A stretch of 64,000 nt of DNA from Candidatus Woesearchaeota archaeon (GCA_018303545.1 JAGVXY010000009.1:24350-88349), one strand, 5' to 3'; positions 44,387 to 61,089 are shown, counted from the stretch's first letter. The notes: generated by a model from the letters alone, not told the origin. Numbers and translations: made by a program.

Positions 44387-44608
44387 AAATAATATAATAA
44401 TCCAGACATTAATAAAGCTTATTGCCATTTTTTTAGAATTTTAATAAGACTGAATGGCTCAGATTATTTTTCAATTTCATTGTCTAAACGGAGTCAATTA
44501 GAAGATTATTGACAAAACAACTACCTCTTTCCGAAAGGCATATTAATCTTACCCCTACATTTTAAAAAAAAGAAAAGATTTAAATATTTGTAGGGATAAG
44601 GGATATTC

Positions 44609-45527: not shown

Positions 45528-46052
45528 TCATTCTGTTGAATAGACCTCCAGTTTTCCTATATAATACGTATCCTCAGAAGGTAAATATAATGATAAAGGT
45601 GTCGAGACAACGGTCGTAGTTTTCTTGCCTTCATCATAAAGAGTATACACTCCGCAATTATCCGGCCATTCCATTTTATTTACCATTTTTGCATCACATT
45701 CTACATCACTTTGTATAGGGTAAACCATCCTCACAACAACTTTGAACCCGGTAAATAAAGGCATATATTTTGATTTCTCCTTCATTACTTTCTCTTTGAA
45801 TGCAAATAATTTAAGCATATCAACGCAATTATCTGGACTCTCATATTTGCTGCACACAATCTCAGGCATTGAAGGCACAAAAGCCAATAAAACTGTTCTC
45901 TCAGTATTGGCGAATTCATCTTGTGTTTCTTCTATGCTTGTATGCTGCGCAGTAAAATAAAGATAAATTCCTAAAAATAGTAATACAAAGAAGACTACCA
46001 AAACAGAAATAGTTTCCATCATCTGAATCTGCCCTTTAGAAAAGCGGAACAC
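45528..46052 (-). CDS. Pilin-like protein with class III signal peptide (FSKG|QIQMMETISVLVVFF)
   Basis: KG-Q cleavage-type motif, Glu at +5, long hydrophobic helix. Third gene of a tight operon. Confidence 0.5.
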   Translation of the reverse strand: MFRFSKGQIQMMETISVLVVFFVLLFLGIYLYFTAQHTSIEETQDEFANTERTVLLAFVPSMPEIVCSKYESPDNCVDMLKLFAFKEKVMKEKSKYMPLFTGFKVVVRMVYPIQSDVECDAKMVNKMEWPDNCGVYTLYDEGKKTTTVVSTPLSLYLPSEDTYYIGKLEVYSTE

Positions 46053-46965: not shown

Positions 46966-47444
46966 GGTGATTTTACTTCCACTATTGCACCCTTAGATTC
47001 CAAATCGTAACTCTTGCCATTTTCAAAGCATAATGGGTTAATAGCTTCATTATTTCTTAAATTAGAAACAGCAAACATAAGATCACAATCCTCTGTTTCC
47101 ATAGGCAGATAATACACATTCTTTCTTCCGTTTTGTATTACTGTTTTATATTCTTGCACAAGGTAATGGTTGTTATTTATTGGATTTTCAGAATTATAGA
47201 AGCATATCATATTCACTTTAGATGTTAATGAAGTCTTATAGCCTTGTCTTGATCCAGTATCCATTCTAAGCATTGATTTGACATCATTGTCTAATTTATT
47301 GTTGAAATCCTGTATTTTTACGCATTCGGCAAACTGCAGATATTTTACTATCTGTGATCCGCCCCATAAAAGAATCATCCCCGCAACAATAATTGCAAAG
47401 ATATACACCAACGGCATTCCAAGAAGCTGTCCTCTTTTTTTCAT
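46962..47444 (-). CDS. Pilin-like protein with class III signal peptide (MKKRG|QLLGMPLVYIFAIIV)
   Basis: KRG-Q motif. First gene of the three-gene operon. Confidence 0.5.
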   Translation of the reverse strand: MKKRGQLLGMPLVYIFAIIVAGMILLWGGSQIVKYLQFAECVKIQDFNNKLDNDVKSMLRMDTGSRQGYKTSLTSKVNMICFYNSENPINNNHYLVQEYKTVIQNGRKNVYYLPMETEDCDLMFAVSNLRNNEAINPLCFENGKSYDLESKGAIVEVKSP

Positions 47445-47505
47445 AGAATAAGTAAATATCTCTGAAATTTATAAAACTAATTGTTTTGTGCTTTTAGAAT
47501 AAGTC

Positions 47506-47757
47506 TTAGACTTCAAAAGATTCTTTTTTTGCATCAAGTTTCAAAAGAGCATCAATAACATCCTGTTTCTTTGCGACTTTTCGGCCCTGAATCTGCATCT
47601 CATACTTTAGAAGCAAAGCAATCTTTTCGGCAATTTCCACAAACTTGGCGTCAATCTGCTCCATCGCTTCATTATTAATTTTGACACTCTTGCTTTTGAA
47701 TAAATTGCAAAGTTTGTTTCTTTTTAATATGTTAATTGTTTCTATATTTTTTTTCAT
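47506..47757 (-). CDS. Histone-fold DNA-binding protein (archaeal histone-like)
   Basis: AMEQIDAKFVEIAEKIALLLKYEMQIQGRKVAKKQDVIDAL, compared with the archaeal histone ...AxxHAGRKTVKxEDIxLA pattern. Confidence 0.5.
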   Translation of the reverse strand: MKKNIETINILKRNKLCNLFKSKSVKINNEAMEQIDAKFVEIAEKIALLLKYEMQIQGRKVAKKQDVIDALLKLDAKKESFEV

Positions 47758-47763
47758 TTTTTA

Positions 47764-48303
47764 TTAATGCATTAATAAATAGTTTTTCTTGTATTTTGCG
47801 CCGAACTTCAAAAATAAATCTTCAAACAATTTTTCATTTTCAGCAGGCATGAAGAATACCTGCCGCGTCAGCCACTCGCCGTTGTATCGTTCCACCAAAG
47901 AATCTTTTCCCCTCAGGATATTAACTAGCCTTACTTTATCGCTTGCAGAAAGCCCATTCAGTTCATAAAAGAACATTAGTTTTGCGGAAAATTTAAAAAC
48001 TTCTGAAAAAGGCTTATTATGCCTCAGGCTGTACCCTTCTCTAAGCAGAGTATTTATGAGGGAAACTGGTTTGATAAAAAAATCATTAATCGAAATGATG
48101 CTTATATGCGCGCCCTCCAGCTCAATTTTGATTTCTTTTTTGCATATTACTGCGGCATCTATATCATCAGGGTTTATTTTTCCCTTTGCAGCAGATCCAA
48201 ATATTACAACATCAAGTACTGATTCATTTTTCAGAATATTTTTCAGGTCATTTATTAATGGAGTTTTTAAGTTCATATGCATATTTCCTCGCTTCAGCAA
48301 CAT
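47764..48303 (-). CDS. Minimal nucleotidyltransferase (MNT) domain protein
   Basis: VVIFGSAAKGKINPDDIDAAVI. Overlaps the upstream HEPN gene by 56 bp. Confidence 0.75.
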   Translation of the reverse strand: MLLKRGNMHMNLKTPLINDLKNILKNESVLDVVIFGSAAKGKINPDDIDAAVICKKEIKIELEGAHISIISINDFFIKPVSLINTLLREGYSLRHNKPFSEVFKFSAKLMFFYELNGLSASDKVRLVNILRGKDSLVERYNGEWLTRQVFFMPAENEKLFEDLFLKFGAKYKKNYLLMH

Positions 48304-48595
48304 CTTTTAATCCAAGCCGGAGATTATAGGTTTTGACATAAGTCTTGAATAATTTTGAGGCATTAGTATACACTTCAGGAAAATATTTCATGAGTAAAGA
48401 AAATCTTTCATTATGATTCTTGGGAAGAATCTTTATCTGGATATAAATACGATAGTCGCACAAGATAACTATCGCTTTAAAAAAGTCAGAGATTGCGGCA
48501 TTGAATCTTTTTTTCGTGAGATTATCCTCGCCAGAATCTAAAAATTCATTTGCATTTTTCAAAAGCTCTTCCATTAATACATTAATAATTATCAT
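48248..48595 (-). CDS. HEPN domain protein
   Basis: RFNAAISDFFKAIVILCDYRI helical HEPN core, 115 aa. Cognate of the downstream MNT. Confidence 0.65.
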   Translation of the reverse strand: MIIINVLMEELLKNANEFLDSGEDNLTKKRFNAAISDFFKAIVILCDYRIYIQIKILPKNHNERFSLLMKYFPEVYTNASKLFKTYVKTYNLRLGLKDVAEARKYAYELKNSINK

Positions 48596-48616
48596 AGATT
48601 TATAAGCTTTTCGTTA

Positions 48617-48628
48617 ATGCATTAATTT
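48617..48628. promoter_or_regulatory. Palindrome TTAATGCATTAA in the divergent promoter region between the HEPN-MNT operon and the wHTH-MNT gene
   Basis: Seen directly. A candidate operator, not verified. Confidence 0.3.
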
Positions 48629-48721
48629 AATAAGTTAATTTGGTTCAATTAAAGATTAAAATTAAACCAAAAAGCTTTTAAATGTATAATAAAATATACA
48701 ATTGTATAAAATAAAAGACAG

Positions 48722-49252
48722 ATGTATAAAAAAATAGATGCAAAAAATCAGGTTTTGAAGGTATTGTTTGAAAATCCAACTTACAGATACCATATTCGAG
48801 AGTTAGCCTCCGTTTCTAGACTAAATCCTAATACCATAATAAATGTTGCCATTTTGTTAGAAAAAGAAAATTTAATCCAAATTATCAAAAAAAAGCATGT
48901 AACAGAAATATATGCCAATCTAGAAAGCAAGGAATTCATAAGAAAAAAGAGATTGTTCAATATTGCTCAGCTTTATGATTCAGGACTGGTTGATTTTATT
49001 GATAGTAAATATTTTCCTAAGGTTATCAGTGTTATTGGCAGTTACAGTTCAGGAGAAGATATTGAAAAAAGTGATATTGATCTAATTGTTATAAATAATA
49101 CAGATAAAAAAATTATTGATCTTTCGCAGTTTGAGAAGAAATTATCAAGAAATATTCATTTAATCTTGACAGACTACCGAAATATTTCCGAAGAATTCTA
49201 CGCAAGTTTGATAAACGGGGTTATTCTTTCAGGTTTTCTTGATAAAAGGTGA
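48722..49252 (+). CDS. wHTH-fused minimal nucleotidyltransferase (third of three)
   Basis: ISVIGSYSSGEDIEKSDIDLIVI, N-terminal wHTH, C-terminal SLINGVILSG. Confidence 0.75.
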   Translation: MYKKIDAKNQVLKVLFENPTYRYHIRELASVSRLNPNTIINVAILLEKENLIQIIKKKHVTEIYANLESKEFIRKKRLFNIAQLYDSGLVDFIDSKYFPKVISVIGSYSSGEDIEKSDIDLIVINNTDKKIIDLSQFEKKLSRNIHLILTDYRNISEEFYASLINGVILSGFLDKR

Positions 49253-49336
49253 AACCATTTAAATATTTCCTTCAAATAAGTGAAGTCAAAAGAAAATAGA
49301 AAAAATAATAGTTAATATTAATTAAAAAAAAGAAAT

Positions 49337-52300
49337 TTACCTGTATGTTTTTACGCGGTATATTACCCAGGCAATTGCTAAGAGTATCAGCAAGATAAGC
49401 AGTATGATTAAGCTTACCTTAGTCCCTGTTCCAATTACCGCACCAGTAATCTGATTTCCTGCATCAGAGATGGCTTCACTATTTAATGCATCAATATCCT
49501 TAGTTTCCTCTGTGTTCGTTGGAATAATCACTGGTTCAGATATTGCAGGTACTATTACAGCAGGCACAGGCACAACAATACTGCTGCCCCCACTGCCGCC
49601 TCCCCCTCCACCGCCGCCAGGCGCCACGTAAGGCGCTGATCCAAATGCCCCAAATAAACTAAAGTGGGTCACATTTGCCCATACATAATCATTTATTGTA
49701 TCTATTCCCTGGTTAGGTTCCAACTGCCAATTTCCTAGAGTTTCATTGAAATAATATATTCTCAATGTATTCTCATCTATCCCTAAGGCATCTAATTCAG
49801 ACTGGTTGTAATAGATTTTTATTAAAGCCCATTCTAATGCCCCTTCTGTGTTTGTATCAATCTCAACATTGATACCTTTCAGATAAGTTAGTCCAGCTGT
49901 TGCCCCAGAAGGATCAACATCTGCGCCAGCAATAGTTACTGTTGATGTTACACTGCTATTTAGATAGAATGTAATATTTGTATCTGCTCCAGGTGCTTCA
50001 ATCTCTGTCATATTATAGGCATCAATCATAGTCTGCAATTGTTCAATTGAAGTCACATTTCCATTCAAATTTATTTCGGGATTATTATCCAAGATGATTG
50101 TGCAGCTTACAAGTTCCAAGACTCCGCCATCAAAAATTATGCCCTGACCATCTGTATCAATGGAAATATTGTTGTTTATGCATTTTGCATTGCCATCAAT
50201 CATCCAATAAACATACATAGGCCTATTATCATAGATACCCCACGCCCCATTGTTATCAAACACACCGTTAGTCAAATGGGCGATAGAATTGCCATCGACA
50301 TACAATCCTGTATTTGCTGGAGGTAGGCAAACATCCATAACACTATCATCATTCGCATTAAATGTAGGATTAATGATAGTCTCTTCAGATGAAACTAGTC
50401 TCATACCCTCACAGTTATATTCTGCTAAGTTATTTTCAAATATATTGCCATTTGAATCAGCGGAGAATATTCCTATTTCATTGTATCGAACTGTATTCTC
50501 ATAGATATTATTGCCTGTTGAACTTCCAATATCAAGGCCATTTCCTATGCCCCCAATGGCAGTTCTTGTATCAAACAAATCACCTGTGTTATTTGCAATA
50601 GTATTGCTGTAGACCTGATTGTTATCGGAATTCGAGAGTCTTATTCCTGCATATAAATTGCCAGTAACTGTATTATCATAAATGACATTCTCTGCAGAAT
50701 ACTTGATATTTATTCCGACTTTTGCATCACGGACCACATTGCCTGAGATTGTGTTGTTATCTGAATTCAGCCTTACATCAATATTGTGCTGGAAAGTACC
50801 TTGTCCATTATTGTTGTGCACATAGTTGTCCAAAATCTGATTATTACTGGACTCCTTCAAATAAATTCCTCTGTCAAAACCCGAAATGGCACAATTCTTA
50901 ACCATAATATCGGATCTGCCTGCAACATAAATCCCATTGCCAGAATCACCGGTAATCGAATGTTTATTGCAGTTCAAGGCAATGTCATCTGCACCAATAT
51001 TTAATCCATTTATTGTTGCACCCTTTCCAGGTAATCTACAGTCAATATCTTTCTCCAATGTCAAATCTTCTTTGATTGTATCTCCGCACTGAACATTGCT
51101 TCCGTCAATAAGATTAACAATGAAAGTATGGCTTGAATCTTCAATTATTGAATTTCCTGCAAGGTCTTCTGCTCCACTTACAGTAATTGTTTCAGTTGTT
51201 AGATCAACTCTTGGCAAAGAATAAACAAAACAGAATGTTTCTGAAAGTTTATCTCTGCAATCATCAACAGTTTGAGCTCCGCCGTCAGGGCTTACTGTGA
51301 TAGCAGGAATATTAGTTATATATTCGCTGAATATTACTCTAATTTCTGGTTGTGAATCCTTATCATATATTACTCCATCAGAGCTTACAGAAACAATAGT
51401 AGGAATTACGGTATCAACAGTGAACCCTGAAACATCAAGGTGCCCAGAATTTCCGGCATTATCTGTAAGTACCAGTGCACAATCCAAATATATGTCATCT
51501 CCTAACGTATTAAAGGTAATAGTCTGTGTTCCTGCAGTATACTCTTGTTCAATTGAGGTGCATGCACCATTAAATTGTAAAAGACCTGCCTCATCTGTGT
51601 TAAAAGTATAATCTGGGGTATTGTCATTGGTATTTACTGGCACAGGAATTATTTCTGTTAAAACCGGTGCAGTATTATCTACAATTACATTTACCTTATT
51701 AGATGAAAAAACATTTCCGGTATTATCATAAGCTTCAACCCATAAGCTATAGGGGCCATCAGCAACAGAAGTTGTATCCCATTCAATGGAATATAAACCA
51801 TTTAAGTCACTATAAATTCCACGGCCTATGAATACATTTGAACCGCCATTCACAAACCAAAAATTAACATAATCGATTTTACTGGCTTTGTCATTAGCAT
51901 CCGCATTGATAGTAATTAGTTTGTTTAAATATTTATTTTCTTCCGGAAAAATTATAGTTGCAACTGGTGCAGTATTATCTAATCTTACATCAATTAATTT
52001 TTCAGGTGTTTCAATATTTCCAGCATTATCAACGGAATAATAAGAAATTGCATAAGTGCCCTCGTCACTTATGGAGATGGAATTTCCAACGATGGGTTTG
52101 GAATCATCAATGGAATAATATGTATTACTGCAACCACTGCCACCAATGCCATCATCACAAGTTAAGGTAATTGTAAATGGATTATTTTGCCAACCACTGG
52201 GAGCGTCATCCGTGGTAGCTGGAGCTGTAACATCTCCTACAACCATCGCACTGCCTCCGCTAACACTAAAAATAATCATAGCTATTAATAAGACTGAAAT

Positions 52301-52381
52301 AAAAATTGATCTTCTATTGTTTGTCATAATCTTCGTCCCCCAACATTTCATTTGATATAATTTTTTCGAAAGCGTAAACAT
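49337..52381 (-). CDS. Giant (1014 aa) surface protein with right-handed parallel beta-helix repeats, Gly-rich stalk and C-terminal TM anchor
   Basis: Signal/TM N-terminus. PbH1-type repeats (NNNGQGTFQHNIDVRLNSDNNTISGNVVRDAKVGINIKYSAENVIYDNTVTGN...). GGGGGGGGSGGSS stalk, then IILLILLILLAIAWVIY followed by RVKTYR. Confidence 0.65.
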   Translation of the reverse strand: MFTLSKKLYQMKCWGTKIMTNNRRSIFISVLLIAMIIFSVSGGSAMVVGDVTAPATTDDAPSGWQNNPFTITLTCDDGIGGSGCSNTYYSIDDSKPIVGNSISISDEGTYAISYYSVDNAGNIETPEKLIDVRLDNTAPVATIIFPEENKYLNKLITINADANDKASKIDYVNFWFVNGGSNVFIGRGIYSDLNGLYSIEWDTTSVADGPYSLWVEAYDNTGNVFSSNKVNVIVDNTAPVLTEIIPVPVNTNDNTPDYTFNTDEAGLLQFNGACTSIEQEYTAGTQTITFNTLGDDIYLDCALVLTDNAGNSGHLDVSGFTVDTVIPTIVSVSSDGVIYDKDSQPEIRVIFSEYITNIPAITVSPDGGAQTVDDCRDKLSETFCFVYSLPRVDLTTETITVSGAEDLAGNSIIEDSSHTFIVNLIDGSNVQCGDTIKEDLTLEKDIDCRLPGKGATINGLNIGADDIALNCNKHSITGDSGNGIYVAGRSDIMVKNCAISGFDRGIYLKESSNNQILDNYVHNNNGQGTFQHNIDVRLNSDNNTISGNVVRDAKVGINIKYSAENVIYDNTVTGNLYAGIRLSNSDNNQVYSNTIANNTGDLFDTRTAIGGIGNGLDIGSSTGNNIYENTVRYNEIGIFSADSNGNIFENNLAEYNCEGMRLVSSEETIINPTFNANDDSVMDVCLPPANTGLYVDGNSIAHLTNGVFDNNGAWGIYDNRPMYVYWMIDGNAKCINNNISIDTDGQGIIFDGGVLELVSCTIILDNNPEINLNGNVTSIEQLQTMIDAYNMTEIEAPGADTNITFYLNSSVTSTVTIAGADVDPSGATAGLTYLKGINVEIDTNTEGALEWALIKIYYNQSELDALGIDENTLRIYYFNETLGNWQLEPNQGIDTINDYVWANVTHFSLFGAFGSAPYVAPGGGGGGGGSGGSSIVVPVPAVIVPAISEPVIIPTNTEETKDIDALNSEAISDAGNQITGAVIGTGTKVSLIILLILLILLAIAWVIYRVKTYR

Positions 52382-52523
52382 TAAATTCGCTCGAACGCAT
52401 ATTAATTTCAGATGAAAATAGGGTGCACCTTAATAAAGTTTTGTATTTATGTTGACTTTACACTAATAACAATAATTTAATACTAAAAATAACCCCTCTA
52501 AAAGAACAAATAAAAAAATAAAT

Positions 52524-53258
52524 TTAATTTAAATTCACACTAAAAGCAACAGGCGCAACAGTCTGAGATTCAGTTGTTATCAAAGATGAAATTTGATCAT
52601 CAGCAATCTCACCGACAAATTTGTATTTACCAATATATTTGTCATACAAATAAACGCCCATCAATCCAGTAGTCTGGCTGTCTTTAGTTATGAATACAGA
52701 TCTTGTGCTCAAAACACCAAAAGGACCATCAAGCTTATTTCCATCAAGTTTCAAAACTTCATAAGGAACAGTATTCTTTGAATAGACAGAAATATACAGC
52801 GCTTCTTGGCCTTCATTGTATTTTGGTGCAATTACTCTGTCTCTTGCATAAGCCATGCCCATTTTTGTTGAAAGCACAACTCTCTCTCCAGGTAAGCCCC
52901 CATTTTTCTTAAGATTGATCAAAACTTCATCTTTAAGCGAATAGCCGTTCTTTCCTGCAGGATTCAATATATGATCCAATTTATCAGTAAAATCAGGAAG
53001 GTACACAGCAACTTTTGACCAGCTTATGTCTTTGCCATTAAGTATAATTTCATCATGCTCAACAGCAGCATTTCTCATGCCAAGTCCAATCAAAAGATTA
53101 TCTGAAAGGCCCCAGTTTGTCTTTATATTGTCTGAGTATATCTGCATCTCAAGTCCAAAAGTTGAGTTATCAACTTTGGCATCAGAAAATGGAGCAAAAG
53201 CAGAAATAACCAGCACAATTGCGGCTAATATTGTTAGTTTAATATTAAAGGTTTTCAT
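52524..53258 (-). CDS. Secreted hypothetical protein (signal peptide)
   Basis: MKTFNIKLTILAAIVLVISAFAPFSDA signal. Same strand as the giant-protein cluster. Confidence 0.4.
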   Translation of the reverse strand: MKTFNIKLTILAAIVLVISAFAPFSDAKVDNSTFGLEMQIYSDNIKTNWGLSDNLLIGLGMRNAAVEHDEIILNGKDISWSKVAVYLPDFTDKLDHILNPAGKNGYSLKDEVLINLKKNGGLPGERVVLSTKMGMAYARDRVIAPKYNEGQEALYISVYSKNTVPYEVLKLDGNKLDGPFGVLSTRSVFITKDSQTTGLMGVYLYDKYIGKYKFVGEIADDQISSLITTESQTVAPVAFSVNLN

Positions 53259-53367
53259 GGGGTTGGATATTAAGTCCTATTTAAATACTTTATGGTAGTT
53301 ACAATCAGTAATTCAGGTTTAAGGCAGAAATGAAGTTATCCATAGTTAAAAACTAAATTAAAAAAAT

Positions 53368-56300
53368 CTAAATTTCTTCTTCAGTATAGATTATATACTC
53401 GCCTAAATTGCCATAAATATCCTTGCACTTAACATAAAACTTGTCATAACTCAATGAAGTCTCATGCACTTTGGAATTATCTCCAGTCATCTTATTCCCT
53501 TCCCCAAATCTGAAATTTTTGTCTCCAGATTCGCAGGAGCAGTCTTCATCAGTCTCAATATATAATGTTCCCTCTGTGAAAATATACATAAGTTTCGGCG
53601 CAGTAGTATCTGCCGTAACCCTAAAGGTAGTATTAGTATTGACTTGGTTTCCTGCTGCATCTCTGCAGGCCACATAATATTTATATTCAGCCATAGGCAA
53701 AATTAATGGCTGTTCATGCAGTGTTTCATTTGTTTTGAAGAAATAAACCATATTCTCAAAAACAGTATCCTTATCAGCGAAAGCGCACATTGCCTTTCCA
53801 TTATCTGCTCCTTTCTCAGTAAGCACTTTTAATGTAACATTATTTGTGTATAATTCTCCTGAAGGCCCAATAGAAACAACTTTCAATGCTTCAGTTCCTT
53901 TCAAGCTAAATTTATAGCTGTCTTCATTAAAGTTTTTTGACATATCTTCACATTTAAAATAATAATTAGTCTCTTGATTTGGTTTTATTCCTGTTAATTT
54001 TGTTTTGCATTCATAGAGCCCACCAAACACTCCGGCTATATCATAAGCTGCGGTGGCGCATTGCATGCTTGTATTCATTGAAATATAATCAACATCATTG
54101 AAATCCCACTTGCATCTCGCAGGCTCACTTACATATACACTTAAATCAGTATCATTTTTATTAGCTGCAATCATTGCTCCATTAGTTAGACTTGTCTGTT
54201 CAATTACCGGCGCTGTTAAATCCGGTGAAGGATCTATCGAGAATCTTACAAAGTAATCATTCTCATTTGCATTTCCCGCTCCGTCCTGGCATCTTATATA
54301 TAGAGTTACAGTATTTCCGTTTACTAATTGTATAACTTGGTTTCCATCTGTATAGCTTGCATTAGGCAGCATTAATTGCGATGACTGATTGTATCTGTAT
54401 AAACTATCCTGCACATAGAATGCAGGCATATCATTATATTTAACAGAATGATTTGCGCTGATTTTGCACTGCGCAGGTTCATTAGTTCTAATTCCAAATG
54501 TTATTGGTTGGAATGCTTTTACTTTTGGCTGTATTTCAAAGCCTGGATTTCCTTGGTAAGTTATTTCTCTTAATGTGTATCCCTCTTTTAATTTTTCAGG
54601 CCATGGTTTTATTATTGGTGCGTTGACATCATTTGGATGCATATTTACGCAAGTCTCATTGTTTCCAGTTCCTGGATTTAATAATGTGCAGTATTTTCCT
54701 AAAGATTTGCATCTGTATTCAGAGCAAGGTTTTATTGGATCCTTATTGCATTCTTCACAGTCTCTTCCACCATCAGGCGCTTCCCATGGTGCGCAGTTTA
54801 CAACAATAGTTTTTGTTTTTTCTGAAGCTGCAACAATATCAACAACTTGATAGATTGTGTATATCCATAACAGTGTATTAAATAATTGCATAAATCCACC
54901 TGCTGCCCCCCCAGTAGAAGAATATTTCGAAACGGATGTTGCCCCTTTCGCATCTGCAGCACTTGAAGCTACTTGATTACCTAAACTTCCATCAGCATTT
55001 ATAGCATACTTATACCATCCATTTTGTGTATTAGTGTAGAGAAAATCTTTTCCAATAAAAACATTGTCTGTACCAAGGTTTCTAATGCCATTAGCCAATT
55101 CTTCTTGTCCTATTGAATTTAATCCTAAATCATAAGTTATTGCTGCCTGTCCAGTCAACCCAAAAGCCTCAGTTCTAACACCAGTTAAAGTAGATTGTTT
55201 GCTAACCATTGCGGCAGAAGATTTTGGTCCGAGGGCGAAACCACTAAATATCTTGTCAATATTCGACCAACCCCATCCCGCGTGACCCCAAGAGGCAATA
55301 CCAGTAAGAGCCATCCATGAAAGTATCATCCATCCGCCTTTCCTATCAAGTTCATCCAACATTCCAGGTTTCTGGTCTTTATATTTATCAGCAGGGAATT
55401 GCAATTCCAAAAATTTAGTAACTTCAGATTTAGTTAATTTCAATCCAGATTCAGTAAACACACCTAAATAATTAAAGTAAGCTCCGCAGTCTCCCTGCGC
55501 AATGCAAGAGGTACTTTGAGCTAGTAGCCAATCTTTTTCTAAGCAGTGACAGTTTCTTACGCATTTCCATTTGTCGCTTATCCCTCCAACAGCAGGAATA
55601 TATTTCCCAATCAATGAAGTCCATCCGCCAGCAGCATAAGTAACCTCACATTTTGATGAAGCTTGTTCACATGCATCAATATTTGTTCCGCCAGTTGGAT
55701 TAGTGCTAGAACTTGAAGTTGAAGTCGCAGCCGCCGCAGCATTTCCCGAACCAGATTGACTAGAACCGGTAGTAAAGCTAGCAGAACCTAAATCATCACC
55801 CCAAAAAGTAAATCCAGGAGGAACCATAGGCACACACTTTCCAGGAGAATCTTTGCTCACTTCATTTCCAGTAGATTTAACGACAGCATCTCCCCACCAA
55901 TAGCAGTCCCTATATTGCAGTTCGGTGCAGCATTTGTATGCATCTTCCAATTTATCAACATAAGAATTCATCGCATCTTCAGAATCAATCTCTTCAAACG
56001 TGGGATCTTCTACATTGCATGCAGCGCAATCAGCCCATCTGTTTTCTCTGCATCTACCTTCAATATATTCTCCTCGGGAAGCAAGCAATGTAAACGAAGT
56101 GCCGGTAGAAAGAGGCTCTGAACCTAAAATACCCTGAACGCAAATCTGTTCCCTATAATCTGCGCAAGGTTCAACAGTAGTCTCACCGTTTATACAAATC
56201 TGTCTGAACTGTCTCGAACCTACAGCATCTCTGCCCCAGCCAGTAGCTCCATCATATAAACACCATGACTCACCATTCTTTTTGTCTCCACCTGAAGCAG

Positions 56301-57108
56301 GAGAACTAGTTTCTTTGTAAACACTTGAGCAGTCAACAGAGTTGCATTTAGCATTTGCTTCATCAACAGCCTTGCATAACGTACCCGAAGCATAATCGCA
56401 GTCTTCAGCGATGTCTTCTGGATTTCCGCATGAATCAAACCAATAAACATCTTCTTTGTAACAAGCTTTATGATGATGAGAAGCGCAGTCGCAGCTTAAT
56501 TTTTTATCTGAACAAAAAGTATCCTTGTGAAAACCTATAGAACTTCCAATATCTGCACTCTGTTCTCCGCAGCTTTCTCTAGCAGTCCATGAGCAGGTAT
56601 CTTGAGAAACGCAGCAGCCCATTTCATTATTTCTGCAAGAATCAACGCATTCTTGTTCAGAAGCAGCATCTTTAAAATCCATCTGCACAAAAGGAAATTT
56701 TTGAGTTTCAGTTTTACAGCGCGTTTGTGTCACATAAGAGCATTCAGTTCCAATAGTGCAGCATCCTCTGGTGCATTTAGGATCATTGCACTCAGGAGAA
56801 GCAAGCCAAACAATTCCTTCGCCTTTGCTTTGCGCAAGAGACCTTGGAACATTTTTGTAGCATACTCCAACTTCTTCATCAACGCCGCATCCTAACTGGC
56901 AGTAACTTGTTTGTTCGCAAGCAGTAGGCGCAGAATTGAAATTAGCATCGCAACTCTTAGCATCAGTATACATGCAATACTCTCCATTAACGGTTTTCTC
57001 GCAGCACCTTAAATCTTGCACAACCGCTTCAGCAGAAGGAGTATACACTGAGAAAATGGAAAAAATTATTACTGTACATAAAAACATCGATGTTATTTTC
57101 TTTATCAA
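53368..57108 (-). CDS. Giant (about 1240 aa) cysteine-rich surface protein with internal hydrophobic segments (paralog 1)
   Basis: TTG start in the ORF track; a likely ATG at 57087 gives a clean signal peptide MFLCTVIIFSIFSVYTPSAEA. About 50 Cys in the first 330 aa. S/T/G linker, two or three hydrophobic segments, then a beta-rich C-terminal domain about 450 aa long. Paralogous to 58030..61089. Confidence 0.6.
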   Translation of the reverse strand: MIKKITSMFLCTVIIFSIFSVYTPSAEAVVQDLRCCEKTVNGEYCMYTDAKSCDANFNSAPTACEQTSYCQLGCGVDEEVGVCYKNVPRSLAQSKGEGIVWLASPECNDPKCTRGCCTIGTECSYVTQTRCKTETQKFPFVQMDFKDAASEQECVDSCRNNEMGCCVSQDTCSWTARESCGEQSADIGSSIGFHKDTFCSDKKLSCDCASHHHKACYKEDVYWFDSCGNPEDIAEDCDYASGTLCKAVDEANAKCNSVDCSSVYKETSSPASGGDKKNGESWCLYDGATGWGRDAVGSRQFRQICINGETTVEPCADYREQICVQGILGSEPLSTGTSFTLLASRGEYIEGRCRENRWADCAACNVEDPTFEEIDSEDAMNSYVDKLEDAYKCCTELQYRDCYWWGDAVVKSTGNEVSKDSPGKCVPMVPPGFTFWGDDLGSASFTTGSSQSGSGNAAAAATSTSSSSTNPTGGTNIDACEQASSKCEVTYAAGGWTSLIGKYIPAVGGISDKWKCVRNCHCLEKDWLLAQSTSCIAQGDCGAYFNYLGVFTESGLKLTKSEVTKFLELQFPADKYKDQKPGMLDELDRKGGWMILSWMALTGIASWGHAGWGWSNIDKIFSGFALGPKSSAAMVSKQSTLTGVRTEAFGLTGQAAITYDLGLNSIGQEELANGIRNLGTDNVFIGKDFLYTNTQNGWYKYAINADGSLGNQVASSAADAKGATSVSKYSSTGGAAGGFMQLFNTLLWIYTIYQVVDIVAASEKTKTIVVNCAPWEAPDGGRDCEECNKDPIKPCSEYRCKSLGKYCTLLNPGTGNNETCVNMHPNDVNAPIIKPWPEKLKEGYTLREITYQGNPGFEIQPKVKAFQPITFGIRTNEPAQCKISANHSVKYNDMPAFYVQDSLYRYNQSSQLMLPNASYTDGNQVIQLVNGNTVTLYIRCQDGAGNANENDYFVRFSIDPSPDLTAPVIEQTSLTNGAMIAANKNDTDLSVYVSEPARCKWDFNDVDYISMNTSMQCATAAYDIAGVFGGLYECKTKLTGIKPNQETNYYFKCEDMSKNFNEDSYKFSLKGTEALKVVSIGPSGELYTNNVTLKVLTEKGADNGKAMCAFADKDTVFENMVYFFKTNETLHEQPLILPMAEYKYYVACRDAAGNQVNTNTTFRVTADTTAPKLMYIFTEGTLYIETDEDCSCESGDKNFRFGEGNKMTGDNSKVHETSLSYDKFYVKCKDIYGNLGEYIIYTEEEI

Positions 57109-57878
57109 CTAGGTTCACCCTCTACAAAAAACTGGAACATTAATCCATCTGTAGTCTGTGTTCTTTTTATCTGGTATAATTTATCAGGATAAGGCCGGTG
57201 TTTGTAAATCATATATTTCCCCGTTTTTGAAAGCATGTATATAAGCTGATCAAAATCTCCAAATTCAGTTTCGACATTTATTATGTCCTGTGAAACATCA
57301 TACAAATCGCCTAAAGGCAAATTAACCATAGTATTGAATTTATTTTCGGTAATTGTAATATCTTTCTGTGTCAGCACAACAGGGTAAGTTACATCAACTT
57401 GCACATTTTCCTTATTTATAATTACCGTTGCCTTTGGCATTCCCTGTCCGCTTACAGTTACGCCTGAAAATATTGATGAAAAAGAATTTACATCTATGCA
57501 TTTCTGCAGATTAAAATTTATCACCTGTGAAAGGTCTTTTTCCATATCTGAAATTGTAAGCATTTTATTATAGCATGTAGGCTGACCCTTAATATTATAG
57601 CAAAGATAGCTTACAGTAGTCCCATTAAATAATTTGTAAGATTTTGGAGTCAGCTGTCCGCCTTTCAAAGCAATCTCTCTTATTGGCCCATTAGCCGATT
57701 CATCAACACATTCTTGAATATGTTCTCTTATTGGCCCAAATTCTGTCTGCACTGTCTCTATAGTAATCGTTCCTGGCAGAATTCTTTCTCTAAATGCCAA
57801 AGTCAGGCCTATTACCCCTACTATTAGAATCCCTAATATAATATAGATTGTTACTTGACCTCTTTTTCCCATTTCCAT
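57105..57878 (-). CDS. Pilin-like protein with class III signal peptide (MEMGKRG|QVTIYIILGILIVGV) inside the giant-protein cluster
   Basis: KRG-Q motif plus a long hydrophobic helix. Lies immediately upstream of giant paralog 1. Confidence 0.5.
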   Translation of the reverse strand: MEMGKRGQVTIYIILGILIVGVIGLTLAFRERILPGTITIETVQTEFGPIREHIQECVDESANGPIREIALKGGQLTPKSYKLFNGTTVSYLCYNIKGQPTCYNKMLTISDMEKDLSQVINFNLQKCIDVNSFSSIFSGVTVSGQGMPKATVIINKENVQVDVTYPVVLTQKDITITENKFNTMVNLPLGDLYDVSQDIINVETEFGDFDQLIYMLSKTGKYMIYKHRPYPDKLYQIKRTQTTDGLMFQFFVEGEPS

Positions 57879-58029
57879 TTTCCCTGAATACCCCTTTCTA
57901 TTTAAATATTTTGATTATGAATATACGATTATTTCAGTCATTGCATTGCCGTATTGATCGATGCATTTCACATGATAAGCGGTTGTTGATAGTGGCGCTC
58001 CATGCAATGTTGTATTTATTCCAGACATA

Positions 58030-61000
58030 TCATATCCCTGACCAAGTCATATTTGAATATTGGCATGTTGTTATTTCGCTCAGTTCAATTCTAAGTTCTG
58101 TGTCTCTGAATATTCCTAATAATAAAGGCGCCGAAGTATCTACAGTTATTCTAAATTTAGTTGCATTGCTGGCAACATTTCCGGCAATATCTGTACATTC
58201 AAAATTATAATTATATTCCCCTAACTTTAATCCTTGCAGTAATTGTCTGTGCACTGAGCTTGAAGTTTCCATCATCTCAATCATGCCTCTTCCTTTTTCA
58301 GCAAAAGAGCATATTGCTTTTCCGCCTTCAGCTCCTCCGAAAGTTCCTAATTTTAATTCTGCGTTTGTTGAATATATCTCTTTTCCCATTGTGGGTTCAA
58401 CAAAAGTTATTTTTAATTCATCAGTGCCAATTACAGAAATTGGATAGCTCTGCTGGTTTGTATTTCCATATCTGTCCTGGCATCTTATATAATACTGATT
58501 TGCTCCTTTTGAAATATTTGGTAAAATTATTAGTGCATTAAATCCAAAATTAGAATAGCTATTAGCGCTCAATCCGCCATACTGCATCAGTTCATAATCT
58601 GTGTCAATTGTATCGACTCTGCAAGTTCCAGGCTCATTTAAAGTTACTGTTAAAGGTGAGTAAGTTACATTAAAAGGTATGAACGCTCCATCTTTCAGGC
58701 TTACATTTTCTATCACCGGGGCTGTTAAATCTGGGCCTTCTTTTGTTTTATATTTTATTACATAATATATGGGATTATCATTTCCTTGATAGTCTGAACA
58801 TTTTATTGCATAACTATATTCTGTATTAGGTTCCATTACGGAAATAGTCATTGTGTGATTTAATCTGAACATCACATCTTCAAAGTAACTTGCAGGCATC
58901 TCTTCGAACTTCTTTGGATATTGTATATCTGCATTCGTATCTACTTTGCATTGTGCAGGCTCTGAAGTCTCAATGCCAAAAGTTATTGGCTTGAATGGAT
59001 CAACTAAAGGTAAAATATTATATCCGGATTGTGCTCCATCTTGAATTTGATATTCTTTATTTAAAACTTCCAACCAAGGTTTTATCATCGGTGCATTAAC
59101 ATCATTCGGATGCGCTACAACACAAGTCTCATTTCCTGTTCCTTCATTTACTAATTTGCAGTCCGCTCCTAAAGATCTGCATTTATATTCAGAACATACT
59201 TTGAAAGGCCCCGTGCATTCCTCGCATTTATTTTCTTTAGGTGCCGTCCACGGAGCGCAGATAGAGGTAAAAATATGTTCATGCTGCTCACTTCCTGAAG
59301 TTACAAGCCAGGTAATTATTAAAATTATCGCTAAAACAATCCAACCCCAAATGGGAATTACACCAAGCCATCCTGAACCAGCCACAACACTCCCCAGAGC
59401 GCCCTTAGCTGCCGCAAGAGCAAGAATACTAATTGTTCCACCTGTAAACGTAACTGCCCCAACCGTTACAGTTGCTGTTGCAAAAACCAAGATATAAATA
59501 GAAATTAAAGTAGCAGCAATTCCACCATAAGCTCCAAATTGATTGATAGTTCCTATTGTGTTCATTTCACTTAAAACAGCATCACTAATGCTACCCAAAA
59601 CATCCATCATAACACTTAAGCCACCATGAACTCCGTAAGTTGCCCAATAATTCCATAAATATTCAGGAACACCACTATATTCTAAATTGCCATCAGCTGA
59701 TCGGACCATCCATTTTGGAGGGCCGCTAGGATCCCAATTATCTTGATAAGCGGATTTTAAATCAAAAGAATCCAAACCGCCTTTGACTAATTCAACATTA
59801 TATGCTGGACCGCAATCTCCCTTGCTCTTGCAATATAATAAAACATTATCTGCAAATTTTTGCTGCAAGGTTTCTTGATTAATTTCATGCCAGTCTGCAA
59901 AAGTATTTTTTTTATAATAAAAATAATGGGCTTCAATATTTGCTTCTGAGCAAGTTTCAGCAACAGTTTCATCTTCAGTATCCCAGAACTTAAATCCTTC
60001 AGGAACAGTAGTTATAGATGTATTCCAATTTTCAATGCAAGCCGCAGCAGCATAAGATCCTCTGTCAGCGCTAGCTTTTCCCTGCAGACAAATTTCTTCT
60101 CTATAATCTTTGCACTCTTCATACACTTCTTCACCATTTATACATAAGTGTCTATAGTGTCTAGAGCCAACAGCATCAGTCCAATTTCCAGTAGGTCCTT
60201 CATAAATGCACCAAGATTCTCCATTCATCCTAAAGCCACCAAGTCTAGCATCATGAACATTCTTCTCATCGGTATAAGTAGAAGTGCAATCTAAAGAAGA
60301 GCAAGAAGCCGTATTGTTATCTATCTGCTTACAAAGTGTCCCTTTGGCATAATCACAATCATCTGCAATCCCTTCCATGTTTCCGCATGAATCAAAATAA
60401 TAAACATCTTCACCGACACATTGAGTTTTATATTGTTTCGTACAGTCACAACCTAAACTTGAATCTGAACAGTAAGTATTAAAATTAAATTGAATACCTT
60501 GACTAGTCAAGGCTTGTCGGCTTTCACAGTCATCCCTAGTTGTCCAAGAGCACTCCCCGAGACCTAGAGAGCAGCACCCATGGTCTTGCCCCTGGCAGTA
60601 GCCAACACATTCTAATTCAGAAGTGGCATCCCTAAAATCCATCGATAAATAAGGAAAATTAGAAACAGCATTTTTACATTCTAACTGGGTAGACATAAAG
60701 CATTGGTCTCCAATTACACAGCAGTTTTTTTGGCATTCAGGAACTTGGCAAAGTGGATCAGCACTAAATAATCCGTCTTTAGAAGCGCAAGTCGGCTGCG
60801 GTGTATTTTTATAGCATGCCCCATCATTTTTATCATAGCAGCAACCTAATTTGCAGAAAGAAGAAGCCTCACAGGACGAAGCGGAAACCCTGTATCCTGG
60901 ATTGCACTGGTCCTGCGTTGTATACTGGCAAGTCTCTCCGCCCTTAGTAATCTCACAGCAGACTTTATTCGCATCCCCATTCGTATTCTCATCTTCAGCA

Positions 61001-61089
61001 TTGACTTCGGAAACAAAATAAGAAAAAGCAACAATGGCAATAATCATAATAAAGCACATGCTCACCGCTTTTTCTTTTAAAAATATCAT
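58030..61089 (-). CDS. Giant (1019 aa) cysteine-rich surface protein with internal multi-TM block (paralog 2)
   Basis: Signal peptide. Cys-rich N-terminal domain alignable to paralog 1 (VCCEITKGGETCQY... vs RCCEKTVNGEYCMY...). Conserved CAPWTAPKENKCEECTGPFKVCSEYKCRSLG module. About 75-aa hydrophobic block. Confidence 0.6.
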   Translation of the reverse strand: MIFLKEKAVSMCFIMIIAIVAFSYFVSEVNAEDENTNGDANKVCCEITKGGETCQYTTQDQCNPGYRVSASSCEASSFCKLGCCYDKNDGACYKNTPQPTCASKDGLFSADPLCQVPECQKNCCVIGDQCFMSTQLECKNAVSNFPYLSMDFRDATSELECVGYCQGQDHGCCSLGLGECSWTTRDDCESRQALTSQGIQFNFNTYCSDSSLGCDCTKQYKTQCVGEDVYYFDSCGNMEGIADDCDYAKGTLCKQIDNNTASCSSLDCTSTYTDEKNVHDARLGGFRMNGESWCIYEGPTGNWTDAVGSRHYRHLCINGEEVYEECKDYREEICLQGKASADRGSYAAAACIENWNTSITTVPEGFKFWDTEDETVAETCSEANIEAHYFYYKKNTFADWHEINQETLQQKFADNVLLYCKSKGDCGPAYNVELVKGGLDSFDLKSAYQDNWDPSGPPKWMVRSADGNLEYSGVPEYLWNYWATYGVHGGLSVMMDVLGSISDAVLSEMNTIGTINQFGAYGGIAATLISIYILVFATATVTVGAVTFTGGTISILALAAAKGALGSVVAGSGWLGVIPIWGWIVLAIILIITWLVTSGSEQHEHIFTSICAPWTAPKENKCEECTGPFKVCSEYKCRSLGADCKLVNEGTGNETCVVAHPNDVNAPMIKPWLEVLNKEYQIQDGAQSGYNILPLVDPFKPITFGIETSEPAQCKVDTNADIQYPKKFEEMPASYFEDVMFRLNHTMTISVMEPNTEYSYAIKCSDYQGNDNPIYYVIKYKTKEGPDLTAPVIENVSLKDGAFIPFNVTYSPLTVTLNEPGTCRVDTIDTDYELMQYGGLSANSYSNFGFNALIILPNISKGANQYYIRCQDRYGNTNQQSYPISVIGTDELKITFVEPTMGKEIYSTNAELKLGTFGGAEGGKAICSFAEKGRGMIEMMETSSSVHRQLLQGLKLGEYNYNFECTDIAGNVASNATKFRITVDTSAPLLLGIFRDTELRIELSEITTCQYSNMTWSGI

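What the first reader, a model, noticed from the sequence alone, without database searches (positions are those of the whole stretch)
49337..61089. 11.7-kb single-strand cluster of giant surface proteins plus a pilin-like gene: candidate host-attachment apparatus
Five consecutive minus-strand genes encode exported proteins. The first is a 1014-aa protein with parallel beta-helix repeats, a poly-Gly stalk and a C-terminal TM anchor. The second is a 244-aa secreted protein. The third is a roughly 1240-aa cysteine-rich protein. The fourth is a 257-aa protein with a class III (type IV pilin-like) signal peptide, KRG|Q. The fifth is a 1019-aa paralog of the cysteine-rich giant. Giant cysteine-rich ectodomain proteins co-encoded with pilin-like proteins, in an AT-rich archaeon that otherwise carries a minimal translation core, fit the surface machinery of DPANN-type episymbionts. 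The specific architecture does not match anything I can name. That architecture is a Cys-rich roughly 300-aa head, an internal TM block and a beta-rich tail.
Basis: partly seen in the sequence, partly recalled or inferred. Interest (0 to 1): 0.75.

Follow-up and report, generated by a model that had tools for sequence, protein, structure and literature searches.

The report
Conserved DPANN pilin-like surface-protein locus
Two giant disulfide-rich surface proteins and five pilin-like proteins form an uncharacterised gene set next to the S-layer gene, conserved across Woesearchaeota/Pacearchaeota archaea, and probably build a fixed cell-surface complex.

Summary
The five minus-strand genes are real and have the features described. 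They are not the natural unit.

- **Conserved unit.** About 80 related genomes share the order giant A, a ~255-aa class-III-signal protein ("p255"), giant B, four further pilin-like proteins (~165, 320, 175 and 145 aa), then the S-layer gene.
- **Extent in the window.** This block runs from 41612 to 61089.
- **Insertions.** The 244-aa gene is an ORFan. It sits with the 1014-aa beta-helix surface protein and toxin–antitoxin-like genes at a recurrent insertion site.
- **Giants.** Each has a Sec signal, a 450–530-aa cysteine-rich head with no structural match found, a Cys-free hydrophobic hairpin, a Cys knot and about four Ig-like domains.
- **p255.** It nearly always directly precedes a giant and is fused to one in three proteins.
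- **Split forms.** In Pacearchaeota-type loci one giant is split into a secreted head and a separately exported tail.
- **Missing machinery.** No pilus ATPase lies within 10 kb in any locus.
- **Status.** All members are annotated "hypothetical". The family has more than 2,600 clusters at 50% identity.

Best reading: a lineage-wide surface complex of pilin-like proteins plus giant proteins. A role in host attachment is plausible but unproven.

The parts
57915..61089 (-). Giant A. The ORF as assembled is 58030-61089 (1019 aa). The intact orthologue is 1060 aa and ends at 57915. Layout: Sec signal (residues 1-31, VNA|E); Cys-rich head (~41-480) with four CC-x-C-x-T-x-C modules and conserved motifs DVYYFDSCGN, NGESWC and VGSRHYRH; hydrophobic Cys-free block (~488-598); 7-Cys knot (611-656); about four Ig-like domains.
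   Evidence: AF2 pLDDT 78.9; Ig/Fn3 matches only; frameshift.
57105..57878 (-). p255, a 257-aa class-III-signal (type IV pilin-like) protein beginning MEMGKRG|QVTIYIILGILIV. It has a globular alpha/beta domain with 4 invariant Cys. Its gene overlaps giant B by 4 bp.
   Evidence: AF2 pLDDT 93.2; no PDB fold match; directly adjacent to a giant in 55 of 73 loci; fused to giants in P0063, P0064 and P0065.
53368..57108 (-). Giant B (1246 aa, TTG start, 66 Cys). Layout: Sec signal (AEA|V); head 29-~560; weakly hydrophobic helix 591-614; Cys-free low-complexity loop 615-738; helix 739-761; Cys knot from C772; Ig-like tail to 1246.
52524..53258 (-). 244-aa signal-peptide protein, an ORFan. It is not part of the conserved set and lies in the insertion site after giant B.
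49337..52381 (-). 1014-aa accessory surface protein with a signal peptide, OmpL47/Big Ig-like domains, a right-handed beta-helix (438-667), a poly-Gly stalk and a C-terminal TM anchor. It is lineage-specific, with no counterpart in syntenic loci.
47506..49252 (.). Inserted genes resembling minimal-nucleotidyltransferase toxin-antitoxin modules: 47764-48303 (NTase), 48248-48595, 48722-49252 (HTH+NTase) and 47506-47757.
   Evidence: Similar modules interrupt the locus in L006 and L009.
46962..47444 (-). p165, a 160-aa pilin-like protein beginning MKKRG|QLLGMPLVYIFAIIVAG.
   Evidence: Orthologue of the L003 165-aa protein, E 6e-15..
46036..46965 (-). p320, a 309-aa pilin-like protein beginning MKG|QIENSLTWIFVSIVGVVIL. 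Its gene overlaps p165 by 4 bp.
   Evidence: Orthologue of the L003 321-aa protein, E 7e-13..
45528..46052 (-). p175, a 174-aa pilin-like protein with ..FSKG|QIQMMETISVLVVFF. An acidic residue is conserved about 6 positions after the Gly.
   Evidence: Orthologue of the L003 177-aa protein, E 1e-19..
44609..45502 (+). Fic/DOC gene on the opposite strand, inserted between p175 and p145. It is not part of the conserved set.
   Evidence: PF02661, 75.1 bits. Absent at this position in the other loci.
43928..44428 (-). p145 pilin-like protein. The ORF is 166 aa; the likely true start is M15 at 44386, giving MRRA|QIEIVGMVIIVILIV.
   Evidence: Orthologue of the L003 143-aa protein, E 1e-4..
41612..43642 (-). 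S-layer protein (676 aa, PF05124 S_layer_C). It is the conserved last gene of the block.
   Evidence: 39.3 bits against a cut-off of 23.9. Orthologous to the L003 S-layer protein, E 4e-23. Same position in L001, L003, L005 and L007.

Best explanation
The region is the local copy of a vertically inherited surface-structure locus found widely in Woesearchaeota and Pacearchaeota (DPANN). It is interrupted here by strain-specific insertions.

Shown:
- The conserved gene order is giant A, p255, giant B, p165, p320, p175, p145, S-layer.
- All five small proteins carry class-III-type (prepilin-like) N-termini, [KR]-[GA]|Q followed by about 20 hydrophobic residues.
- Each giant has a Sec signal peptide, a novel disulfide-type Cys-rich head, a Cys-free hydrophobic hairpin, a Cys knot and about four Ig-like domains.

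Inferred:
- Head and tail are both outside the cell, held by the membrane hairpin.
- p255 is a stoichiometric partner that binds the head. The evidence is translational coupling and Rosetta-stone fusions.
- The N-terminal helices of the five pilin-like proteins bundle into a short pilus-like or pseudopilus-like stub. This stub organises and presents the giants at or through the S-layer. The arrangement is analogous to a minor-pilin priming complex carrying a large tip protein.
- Assembly would use a prepilin peptidase, and possibly an ATPase and platform protein, encoded elsewhere.
- The exposed Cys-rich heads most likely mediate contact with another surface, either a host cell or a substrate.
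For: Synteny:
- It holds in 9 loci fetched through homologues and in 79 loci from GTDB species-representative genomes.
- A giant ORF was called in 73 of the 79 loci. p255 is directly adjacent in 55 of these and present somewhere in the locus in 64.
- At least three of the four small pilin-like families occur in 30 loci, and in 16 of the 26 loci that have at least 5 kb downstream.
- The window genes are one-to-one orthologues of the L003 genes.

Class-III N-termini:
- G7 and Q8 are invariant in p255.
- A crude motif test is positive in 88-98% of members of the five small families, against 3% of other ORFs (sequences).

p255-giant link:
- The 4-bp gene overlap recurs.
- Three proteins (P0063, P0064 and P0065) carry a full p255 domain fused N-terminally to a giant, E ~1e-53.

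Topology:
- Cys density is 9.2% in the head, 3.7% in the tail and 0.4% in the linker.
- Tail composition matches the extracellular proteins of this genome (charged 21-23%, S+T+N+G 28%) and not the cytoplasmic ones (charged 24-33%, S+T+N+G 17-25%).
- In at least 11 Pacearchaeota-type loci one giant is split. The head gene has a signal peptide and usually no TM. The tail gene has its own N-terminal signal placed upstream of the same hairpin.

Structure:

Precedent:
- Predicted archaeal type IV pilus loci contain minor pilins, two large proteins, an S-layer-like protein and many conserved cysteines (PMC4858521).
Against: - No T2SSE/FlaI-type ATPase motif or A24 peptidase motif was found within ±10 kb in any of about 80 loci, or in the window ORFs that were scanned.
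- One preprint states that type IV pilus components are missing from DPANN genomes (10.1101/2020.05.14.094862).
- Pfam finds no pilin family in any of the five small proteins, and NCBIfam (run only on p255) finds none either. The confident p255 model has no pilin match in PDB by Foldseek.
- Membrane topology rests on hydropathy, composition and gene splits, not on a dedicated predictor. In Pacearchaeota tail genes a Lys-rich flank (YKKES) follows the last TM helix, which argues mildly against an outside tail.
- Part of the synteny, with PCNA, TFS and RpoL upstream, could reflect general gene-order conservation rather than functional coupling.
- There are no expression, localisation or binding data.
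Confidence: 0.5

Rival explanations
1. Structural envelope scaffold. The giants and pilin-like proteins are fixed components that anchor, space or nucleate the S-layer over the membrane, forming a pseudo-periplasm. They would have no role in binding other cells.
For: - The S-layer gene is the conserved last gene of the block.
- Conservation is strong and lineage-wide, with invariant Cys frameworks and motifs, unlike fast-evolving host-specific adhesins.
- The locus sits in housekeeping synteny.
- No pilus ATPase is encoded in the locus.
- Class-III-signal proteins can serve non-pilus surface assemblies, such as the Sulfolobus bindosome (from my own knowledge).
Against: - The S-layer gene was detected in only 10 of 73 loci. 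Many loci are truncated and my S-layer HMM was weak.
- Nothing shows contact between the giants and the S-layer protein.
- Two to three divergent paralogous giants with large exposed Cys-rich heads look more like ligand-binding modules than spacers.
Confidence: 0.25
2. All five genes (49337-61089), including the 1014-aa beta-helix protein and the 244-aa protein, form one dedicated host-attachment apparatus.
For: - The genes share a strand and have short intergenic gaps.
- All five have export signals.
- The 1014-aa protein has adhesin- or polysaccharide-lyase-like domains.
Against: - The 244-aa and 1014-aa proteins have no counterpart in any syntenic locus, and the 244-aa protein is an ORFan.
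- The same site after giant B carries unrelated insertions in other genomes, such as HTH genes or nucleotidyltransferase/HEPN modules.
- This unit omits four conserved pilin-like genes and the S-layer gene.
Confidence: 0.1
3. Cell-cell bridge, docking or fusion machine. The hairpin-anchored giants with disulfide-rich beta heads act as a docking platform or fusogen-like device that opens a cytoplasmic connection to a host.
For: - DPANN-host cytoplasmic connections exist, and a large unidentified barrel-shaped complex sits in a DPANN envelope (PMC11329633).
- The giants are membrane-embedded with large beta-rich, disulfide-type ectodomains.
- The head has no known structural relative.
Against: - No fusion-loop or pore features were shown.
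- The organism imaged in that paper is a Micrarchaeota relative, not a Woesearchaeon.
- This reading is pure analogy.
Confidence: 0.08
4. Mobile-element or viral cargo, for example receptor-binding proteins of an integrated element.
For: - IS200/IS605 genes, Fic and toxin-antitoxin-like genes lie in and near the locus.
- Ig-like tails are common in phage fibres.
Against: - The same gene order and housekeeping neighbours (PCNA, TFS, RpoL, S-layer) recur across orders.
- GC content is close to that of the rest of the window, 0.34-0.39 against about 0.32-0.37.
- No integrase or capsid genes are present.
Confidence: 0.02

Closest known systems
Predicted archaeal type IV pilus loci with minor pilins, two large proteins and an S-layer-like protein (Methanococci, Thermoproteales and halobacterial systems; Makarova et al. 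2016, PMC4858521)
   Same: - Several different class-III-signal proteins encoded in a row.
- Two large secreted or membrane proteins.
- A neighbouring S-layer-like gene.
- Many conserved cysteines.
   Different: - Those loci contain the secretion ATPase and TadC, which are absent here within ±10 kb in about 80 loci.
- Their large proteins carry DUF2341 (PilY-like), which is not found here.
- The hairpin-anchored architecture with two ectodomains and the Cys-rich head are not described there.
Bacterial minor-pilin priming complexes with a large tip protein (FimU-PilVWX-PilY1; T2SS GspH-I-J-K)
   Same: - Four small pilin-like proteins of unequal size, one of about 320 aa, are encoded together with protein(s) of more than 1000 aa.
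- This is a working analogy for how the system might assemble.
- The comparison comes from my own knowledge.
   Different: - There is no sequence or fold relationship.
- PilY1 has no TM hairpin.
- The processing signal here is the archaeal KRG|Q type.
- No assembly ATPase is linked.
Giant Ig-repeat adhesins (Salmonella SiiE, Marinomonas MpIBP) and Ig/Fn3 cell-adhesion molecules
   Different: - There are only four repeats.
- Conserved cysteines lie at the positions of motifs that recur in each tail domain.
- The protein is membrane-anchored by an internal hairpin.
- An unrelated Cys-rich head is attached.
- No T1SS signal is present.
- Big_13 scores just below the Pfam cut-off, 26.1 against 27 bits.
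[quoted passage not shown] 2019, PMC6393860)
   Same: It is a DPANN-restricted secreted protein family with S-layer-linked context, found in 43 of 67 DPANN genomes.
   Different: No Nanoarchaeum equitans hit appeared in my searches.
SPEARE giant surface proteins of Nanohaloarchaeota (Hamm et al. 2019, PMC6642349)
   Same: They are very large DPANN surface proteins proposed to mediate host interaction.
   Different: - As I recall from that paper, SPEARE proteins are far larger and carry protease, adhesion and restriction-endonuclease domains.
- No Pfam match of those kinds appeared for the giants here.
- No direct comparison with SPEARE sequences was made.

Membership tests
Archaeal class III signal peptide / type IV pilin-like proteins | Short basic leader ending in [KR]-[GA], a cleavage site, then a ~20-residue hydrophobic helix. 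EppA-type substrates have Gln at +1. | tested here: met
   - In p255, G7 and Q8 are invariant in 51 sequences.
- All five small families show the motif across loci.
- G|Q or A|Q is the commonest junction in p255, p165, p175 and p145. In p320 G|V and G|F are commoner.
- A crude motif test is positive in 88-98% of family members, against 3% of other ORFs.
Archaeal class III signal peptide / type IV pilin-like proteins | Match to a curated pilin or class-III-signal HMM | tested here: not met
   No Pfam hit for any of the five small proteins at E<=5. No NCBIfam pilin hit for p255.
Archaeal class III signal peptide / type IV pilin-like proteins | Pilin fold: a long N-terminal helix packed on a beta-sheet | tested here: inconclusive
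   The AF2 model of p255 (pLDDT 93.2) has helices 6-33 and 40-71 followed by beta-sheets. Foldseek against PDB finds no pilin; the best hit has E 4e-3 and TM 0.14. The other four proteins were not modelled.
Archaeal class III signal peptide / type IV pilin-like proteins | Cleavage by a prepilin peptidase (PibD/FlaK/EppA) | not testable with these tools
   This needs N-terminal sequencing or a peptidase assay. No A24-like motif was found within ±10 kb of the loci.
Type IV pilus / archaeal T4P-like system (as a locus) | Linked VirB11/FlaI-type secretion ATPase and TadC/FlaJ platform protein | tested here: not met
   No GxxG[SAT]GK[TS]T ATPase other than ABC or kinase-type proteins in about 80 loci with ±10 kb flanks. 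None among the window ORFs scanned with Pfam. Whole genomes were not searched. TadC/FlaJ was not screened in the ~80 loci; it was covered only by the Pfam scans of selected window ORFs.
PilY1 / DUF2341 tip adhesins | DUF2341 or PilY1 beta-propeller domain | tested here: not met
   No such Pfam or NCBIfam hit in either giant. The listed fold hits are Ig/Fn3 only.
S-layer proteins (PF05124 S_layer_C) | Match to the S_layer_C domain | tested here: not met
   The giants have no hit. The separate gene 41612-43642 does match, at 39.3 bits against a cut-off of 23.9.
Bacterial Ig-like domain adhesins (Big_13 and relatives) | Ig-like domains reaching the curated Pfam threshold, or a clear fold match | tested here: inconclusive
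Class II fusogens / fusexins (HAP2, Fsx1) | Three-domain beta-rich class II fusion fold | tested here: inconclusive
Right-handed parallel beta-helix proteins (PF13229 / NosD PF05048), for the 1014-aa protein only | Beta_helix or NosD repeats above threshold | tested here: met
   Beta_helix 71.7 bits (cut-off 25.9), NosD 64.3 bits (cut-off 23.6), and TIGR03804 repeat 71.3 bits.

The most novel reading that the evidence does not exclude
The giants, p255 and the four small pilin-like proteins make up the so-far unidentified envelope machine through which Woesearchaeota and Pacearchaeota dock onto, or open a connection with, host cells. It would be a new class of archaeal surface organelle. It would be built from prepilin-like subunits without a dedicated pilus ATPase, and it would carry a new disulfide-rich fold as the contact module.
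Probability: 0.15. Interest if true: 0.9.

Novelty: new variant of a known kind. Interest (0 to 1): 0.6.

Why it matters
Woesearchaeota and Pacearchaeota are among the most abundant uncultured DPANN archaea. How they hold on to, or exchange material with, other cells is unknown, and the envelope complexes seen by cryo-ET in other DPANN have no assigned genes (PMC11329633).

This work defines a compact 7-8 gene module that is conserved across the lineage. It comprises unnamed protein families:
- the giant family, with more than 2,600 clusters at 50% identity;
- p255;
- four small pilin-like families.

It also gives concrete architecture, a fusion-based partner prediction and natural split variants.

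These are specific targets for proteomics, antibody or cryo-ET labelling, and recombinant expression. The results can help annotate thousands of 'hypothetical proteins'.

The work also shows that the eye-catching 1014-aa beta-helix protein and the 244-aa protein are local add-ons rather than part of the machine.

Tried and rejected
**Searches that found nothing useful**
- Pfam and NCBIfam on the five proteins, and Pfam on the four extra small proteins. Only the 1014-aa protein and a near-threshold Big_13 hit gave anything.
- Sequence and profile searches against PDB. Nothing scored below E 0.2.
- Foldseek of p255 against PDB. No significant hit.
- The AFDB50 library was not available.
- Literature searches for a prior description of these proteins. 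None was found. The nearest leads are the Makarova papers.
- Motif scan for a pilus ATPase or an A24 peptidase near the loci. None was found.

**Ideas rejected**
- The TM block has an odd number of spans, which would place the tail in the cytoplasm. Cys density, composition and the split genes argue against it.
- The locus is of viral or mobile origin. Conserved housekeeping synteny argues against it.
- The 244-aa protein is a conserved partner. It is an ORFan.

**Not done**
- Testing whether NEQ255 (cls.004306) equals one of these families.

Full report
**1. The observation**

All five ORFs lie on the minus strand at the stated coordinates.

- **1014-aa protein.** It has right-handed beta-helix/NosD repeats (Pfam Beta_helix 71.7 bits, NosD 64.3 bits) and Ig-like Big_7 and OmpL47-type domains. 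It also has a G7SGG stalk and a C-terminal hydrophobic anchor.
- **244-aa protein.** It has a signal-like N-terminus and no family match.
- **The two giants.** They have 66 and 54 cysteines. They are clear paralogues, with 42% identity over the head (E 2e-87) and 38% over the tail (E 9e-87).
- **257-aa protein.** It begins MEMGKRG|QVTIYIILG. Its gene overlaps the start of the 1246-aa gene by 4 bp.
- **Organism.** The window is archaeal, carrying RpoF, DUF655 and an S13-S4-S11-RpoD-L13-S9 cluster. The encoded proteins match records of a Candidatus Woesearchaeota MAG (locus tags J4468_01080 to 01095). All are annotated 'hypothetical protein'.

**2. A correction to giant A**

The 1019-aa ORF ends in ...CQYSNMTWSGI*. 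The next frame continues with QGYDMSGINTTLHGAPLSTTAYHVKCIDQYGNAMTEIIVYS*. That stretch is identical to the C-terminus of the 1060-aa version found in JGI and ENA assemblies of the same population.

The window therefore carries an ~8-nt deletion near 58037. This is either an assembly error or a real truncation. The intact gene would end at 57915, only 36 nt upstream of the p255 start.

**3. The natural unit is different from the finding**

Homologues of giant A are all 'hypothetical' proteins of Woesearchaeota, Nanoarchaeota, Nanoarchaeia or Pacearchaeota MAGs. Their contigs show a repeated order:

giant A (~1040-1075 aa), a ~255-aa protein, giant B (~1230-1260 aa, 4-bp overlap), then proteins of ~165, ~320, ~175 and ~145 aa, then an S-layer protein (PF05124).

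The window has the same genes further downstream:
- 46962-47444 (160 aa)
- 46036-46965 (309 aa)
- 45528-46052 (174 aa)
- 43928-44428 (166 aa)
- the S-layer gene at 41612-43642

Each is the one-to-one best match of its L003 counterpart, with E values of 6e-15, 7e-13, 1e-19, 1e-4 and 4e-23.

The 244-aa and 1014-aa proteins have no counterpart. The 244-aa protein has no homologue at all apart from itself. Together with nucleotidyltransferase/HEPN-like genes (47506-49252), they occupy a site after giant B where other genomes carry other insertions. A Fic gene on the plus strand interrupts the small-gene run.

**4. Census across species**

A scan of GTDB species-representative genomes found at least 590 stretches encoding relatives. 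The best 79 loci were kept, all from these DPANN lineages. I called ORFs and classified them with HMMs built here. Results:

| Feature | Loci |
|---|---|
| Giant ORF called | 73 of 79 |
| p255 directly adjacent to a giant | 55 of 73 |
| p255 anywhere in the locus | 64 of 73 |
| At least 3 of the 4 small families | 30 of 73 |
| Same, among loci with ≥5 kb downstream | 16 of 26 |

Many loci are cut by contig ends, so these are lower bounds.

An exhaustive phmmer search found 2,674 clusters at 50% identity with E≤1e-3, and 1,063 with E≤1e-30. This is a large, unnamed family.

**5. The small proteins are pilin-like by their N-termini**

Across loci all five families begin with a short basic leader ending in [KR]-[GA]. 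This is mostly followed by Gln in four of the five families (in p320 G|V and G|F are commoner) and then by about 20 hydrophobic residues.

- In p255, G7 and Q8 are invariant in 51 sequences, as are four cysteines.
- A crude motif test is positive in 88-98% of members, against 3% of other ORFs in the same loci.
- A Gln at +1 is typical of the euryarchaeal EppA-type prepilins (my recollection, not tested).
- No curated pilin HMM matches.
- The confident p255 model (pLDDT 93.2) has helices 6-33 and 40-71 followed by beta-sheets. It has no PDB fold match.

The 'pilin-like' label therefore holds at the level of the signal and N-terminal helix, and not yet at the level of fold.

**6. Anatomy of the giants**

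The AF2 model of giant A (pLDDT 78.9) is confident everywhere except residues 26-40 and 488-583.

- **Head.** It starts after a Sec-type signal (VNA|E in A, AEA|V in B). It contains four CC-x-C-x-T-x-C modules and highly conserved motifs (DVYWFDSCGN, NGESWCxYD, VGSRHYRHxCINGEE, GDCG) with many invariant cysteines.
- **Tail.** It starts with a 7-Cys knot (CxPW...CSEYxCxSLG), followed by about four Ig-like domains. Conserved cysteines lie in motifs that recur in each of these domains (EPAxC and YxIxCxD).

**7. Topology (inferred)**

- **Linker types.** A-type giants have a 135-180-aa linker with 70-110 strongly hydrophobic residues. B-type giants have two weaker hydrophobic helices separated by a 120-300-aa loop.
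- **Cys density.** It is 9.2% in heads, 3.7% in tails and 0.4% in linkers. 22 of 28 linkers have no Cys.
- **Composition.** Tail composition matches this genome's extracellular proteins, not its cytoplasmic ones.
- **Split giants.** In at least 11 Pacearchaeota-type loci one giant is split. The head gene keeps its signal peptide and usually lacks any TM segment. The tail gene has its own N-terminal signal, sometimes of the KKG|A type. That signal is followed by a low-complexity linker, the same hydrophobic pair and then the tail.

This fits a hairpin with both ectodomains outside. One caveat is that a Lys-rich flank follows the last helix in some tail genes. No dedicated predictor was available.

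**8. p255 is the giants' partner (inferred)**

- p255 almost always sits immediately upstream of a giant, and the short gene overlap recurs.
- In Pacearchaeota each giant has its own p255.
- Three proteins (P0063, P0064 and P0065; 1171-1257 aa) are natural fusions. A complete p255 domain (E ~1e-53) replaces the four N-terminal CC modules of a giant.

Gene fusion together with conserved adjacency is standard evidence for physical interaction.

**9. What is missing**

No FlaI/PilB-type ATPase motif or A24 peptidase motif occurs within ±10 kb in any of about 80 loci. None appears among the window ORFs that were scanned.

The literature disagrees on this point. Makarova et al. report T4P ATPases in some nanoarchaea whose cognate pilins were not identified (PMC4858521; PMC6393860). 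He et al. state that T4P components are missing in DPANN.

A long filament is therefore not established. A short pseudopilus-like stub, or a bindosome-like membrane assembly, fits the data equally well.

**10. Comparison with known systems**

The closest described kind is the predicted archaeal T4P locus with minor pilins, two large proteins, an S-layer-like protein and many conserved cysteines.

As a working analogy, it resembles the bacterial minor-pilin/PilY1 tip complex.

It differs in four ways:
- It lacks the ATPase and platform protein.
- It has no DUF2341/PilY domain.
- Its large proteins have a previously undescribed architecture with a hairpin anchor and two ectodomains.
- Its head and p255 folds have no detectable relatives.

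A DPANN-specific 'secreted protein next to S-layer-like proteins' (cls.004306, NEQ255) may be one of these families. I could not test that.

**11. Verdict**

- **Observation:** confirmed.
partly supported. It is a DPANN locus of giants plus pilin-like proteins, but with different boundaries and membership, and the attachment role is unproven.
- **Best explanation (confidence ~0.5):** a conserved surface complex of pilin-like proteins plus giants, next to the S-layer gene.
- **Main rival (~0.25):** a purely structural envelope or S-layer scaffold.
- **Novelty:** a new variant of a known kind.
- **Interest:** 0.6.

Noticed in passing
window 58030-58045 (giant A 3' end); continuation 57915-58040 (-): An ~8-nt deletion frameshifts giant A. 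The next frame encodes the 41 residues that end the 1060-aa version seen in other assemblies of the same population (P0001). This is either an assembly error or a real truncation of the last Ig-like domain.
   Followed up: yes
window 47506-49252; also L006 15297-18995 and L009 16347-17277: Minimal-nucleotidyltransferase/HEPN-type (toxin-antitoxin-like) gene pairs are repeatedly inserted inside this surface locus in different lineages. They usually sit after giant B or between the split head and tail genes. The site looks like an insertion hot spot.
   Followed up: partly
L006, L009, L060, L074-L076, L079, L081, L083-L085, L088: In Pacearchaeota-type genomes one giant is split into a secreted head gene (~500-600 aa, usually with no TM) and a tail gene (~700-930 aa). 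The tail gene has its own N-terminal signal, sometimes of the class-III-like KKG|A type.
   Followed up: yes
P0063, P0064 (= L008 10001-13516), P0065: These are natural fusions in which a complete p255 domain sits at the N-terminus of a giant that lacks the four N-terminal CC modules.
   Followed up: yes
window 44609-45502 (+): A Fic/DOC family gene on the opposite strand is inserted between two of the small pilin-like genes. It is absent at this position in the other loci.
   Followed up: partly
window 40965-41369 (-) and 35998-37170 (+): An IS200-type Y1 transposase (104 bits) lies just downstream of the S-layer gene. An IS605 OrfB/TnpB-like gene lies about 4 kb further on, next to tRNA-Ser (35429-35514).
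   Followed up: no
window 15152-17092 (-): A 646-aa protein has no family match, a weak fn3 hit and a weak C-terminal anchor hit. It is probably another lineage-specific surface protein.
   Followed up: no
window 39344-40012 (-) and 37206-37856 (-): A 222-aa ORF weakly matched my ad hoc S-layer HMM. A 216-aa ORF has a class-III-like N-terminus (..EKG|IDIIMGALVAILVIF). Neither has a Pfam match.
   Followed up: no
window 45528-46052 and orthologues (L001, L003, L005, L007): The p175 family keeps an acidic residue about 6 positions after the predicted cleavage Gly (KG|QxxxxE). The p145 family keeps one at +3 (G|QxE). This recalls the conserved Glu5 of bacterial type IV pilins.
   Followed up: no
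upstream of the locus in L001, L003, L005, L006, L007, L009 and many of L010-L088: PCNA, TFS (Zn_ribbon_TFIIS) and RpoL genes commonly lie just upstream of giant A in relatives. In this window the upstream neighbours are TruD and small unknown ORFs instead, so the window's genome is rearranged on that side.
   Followed up: partly
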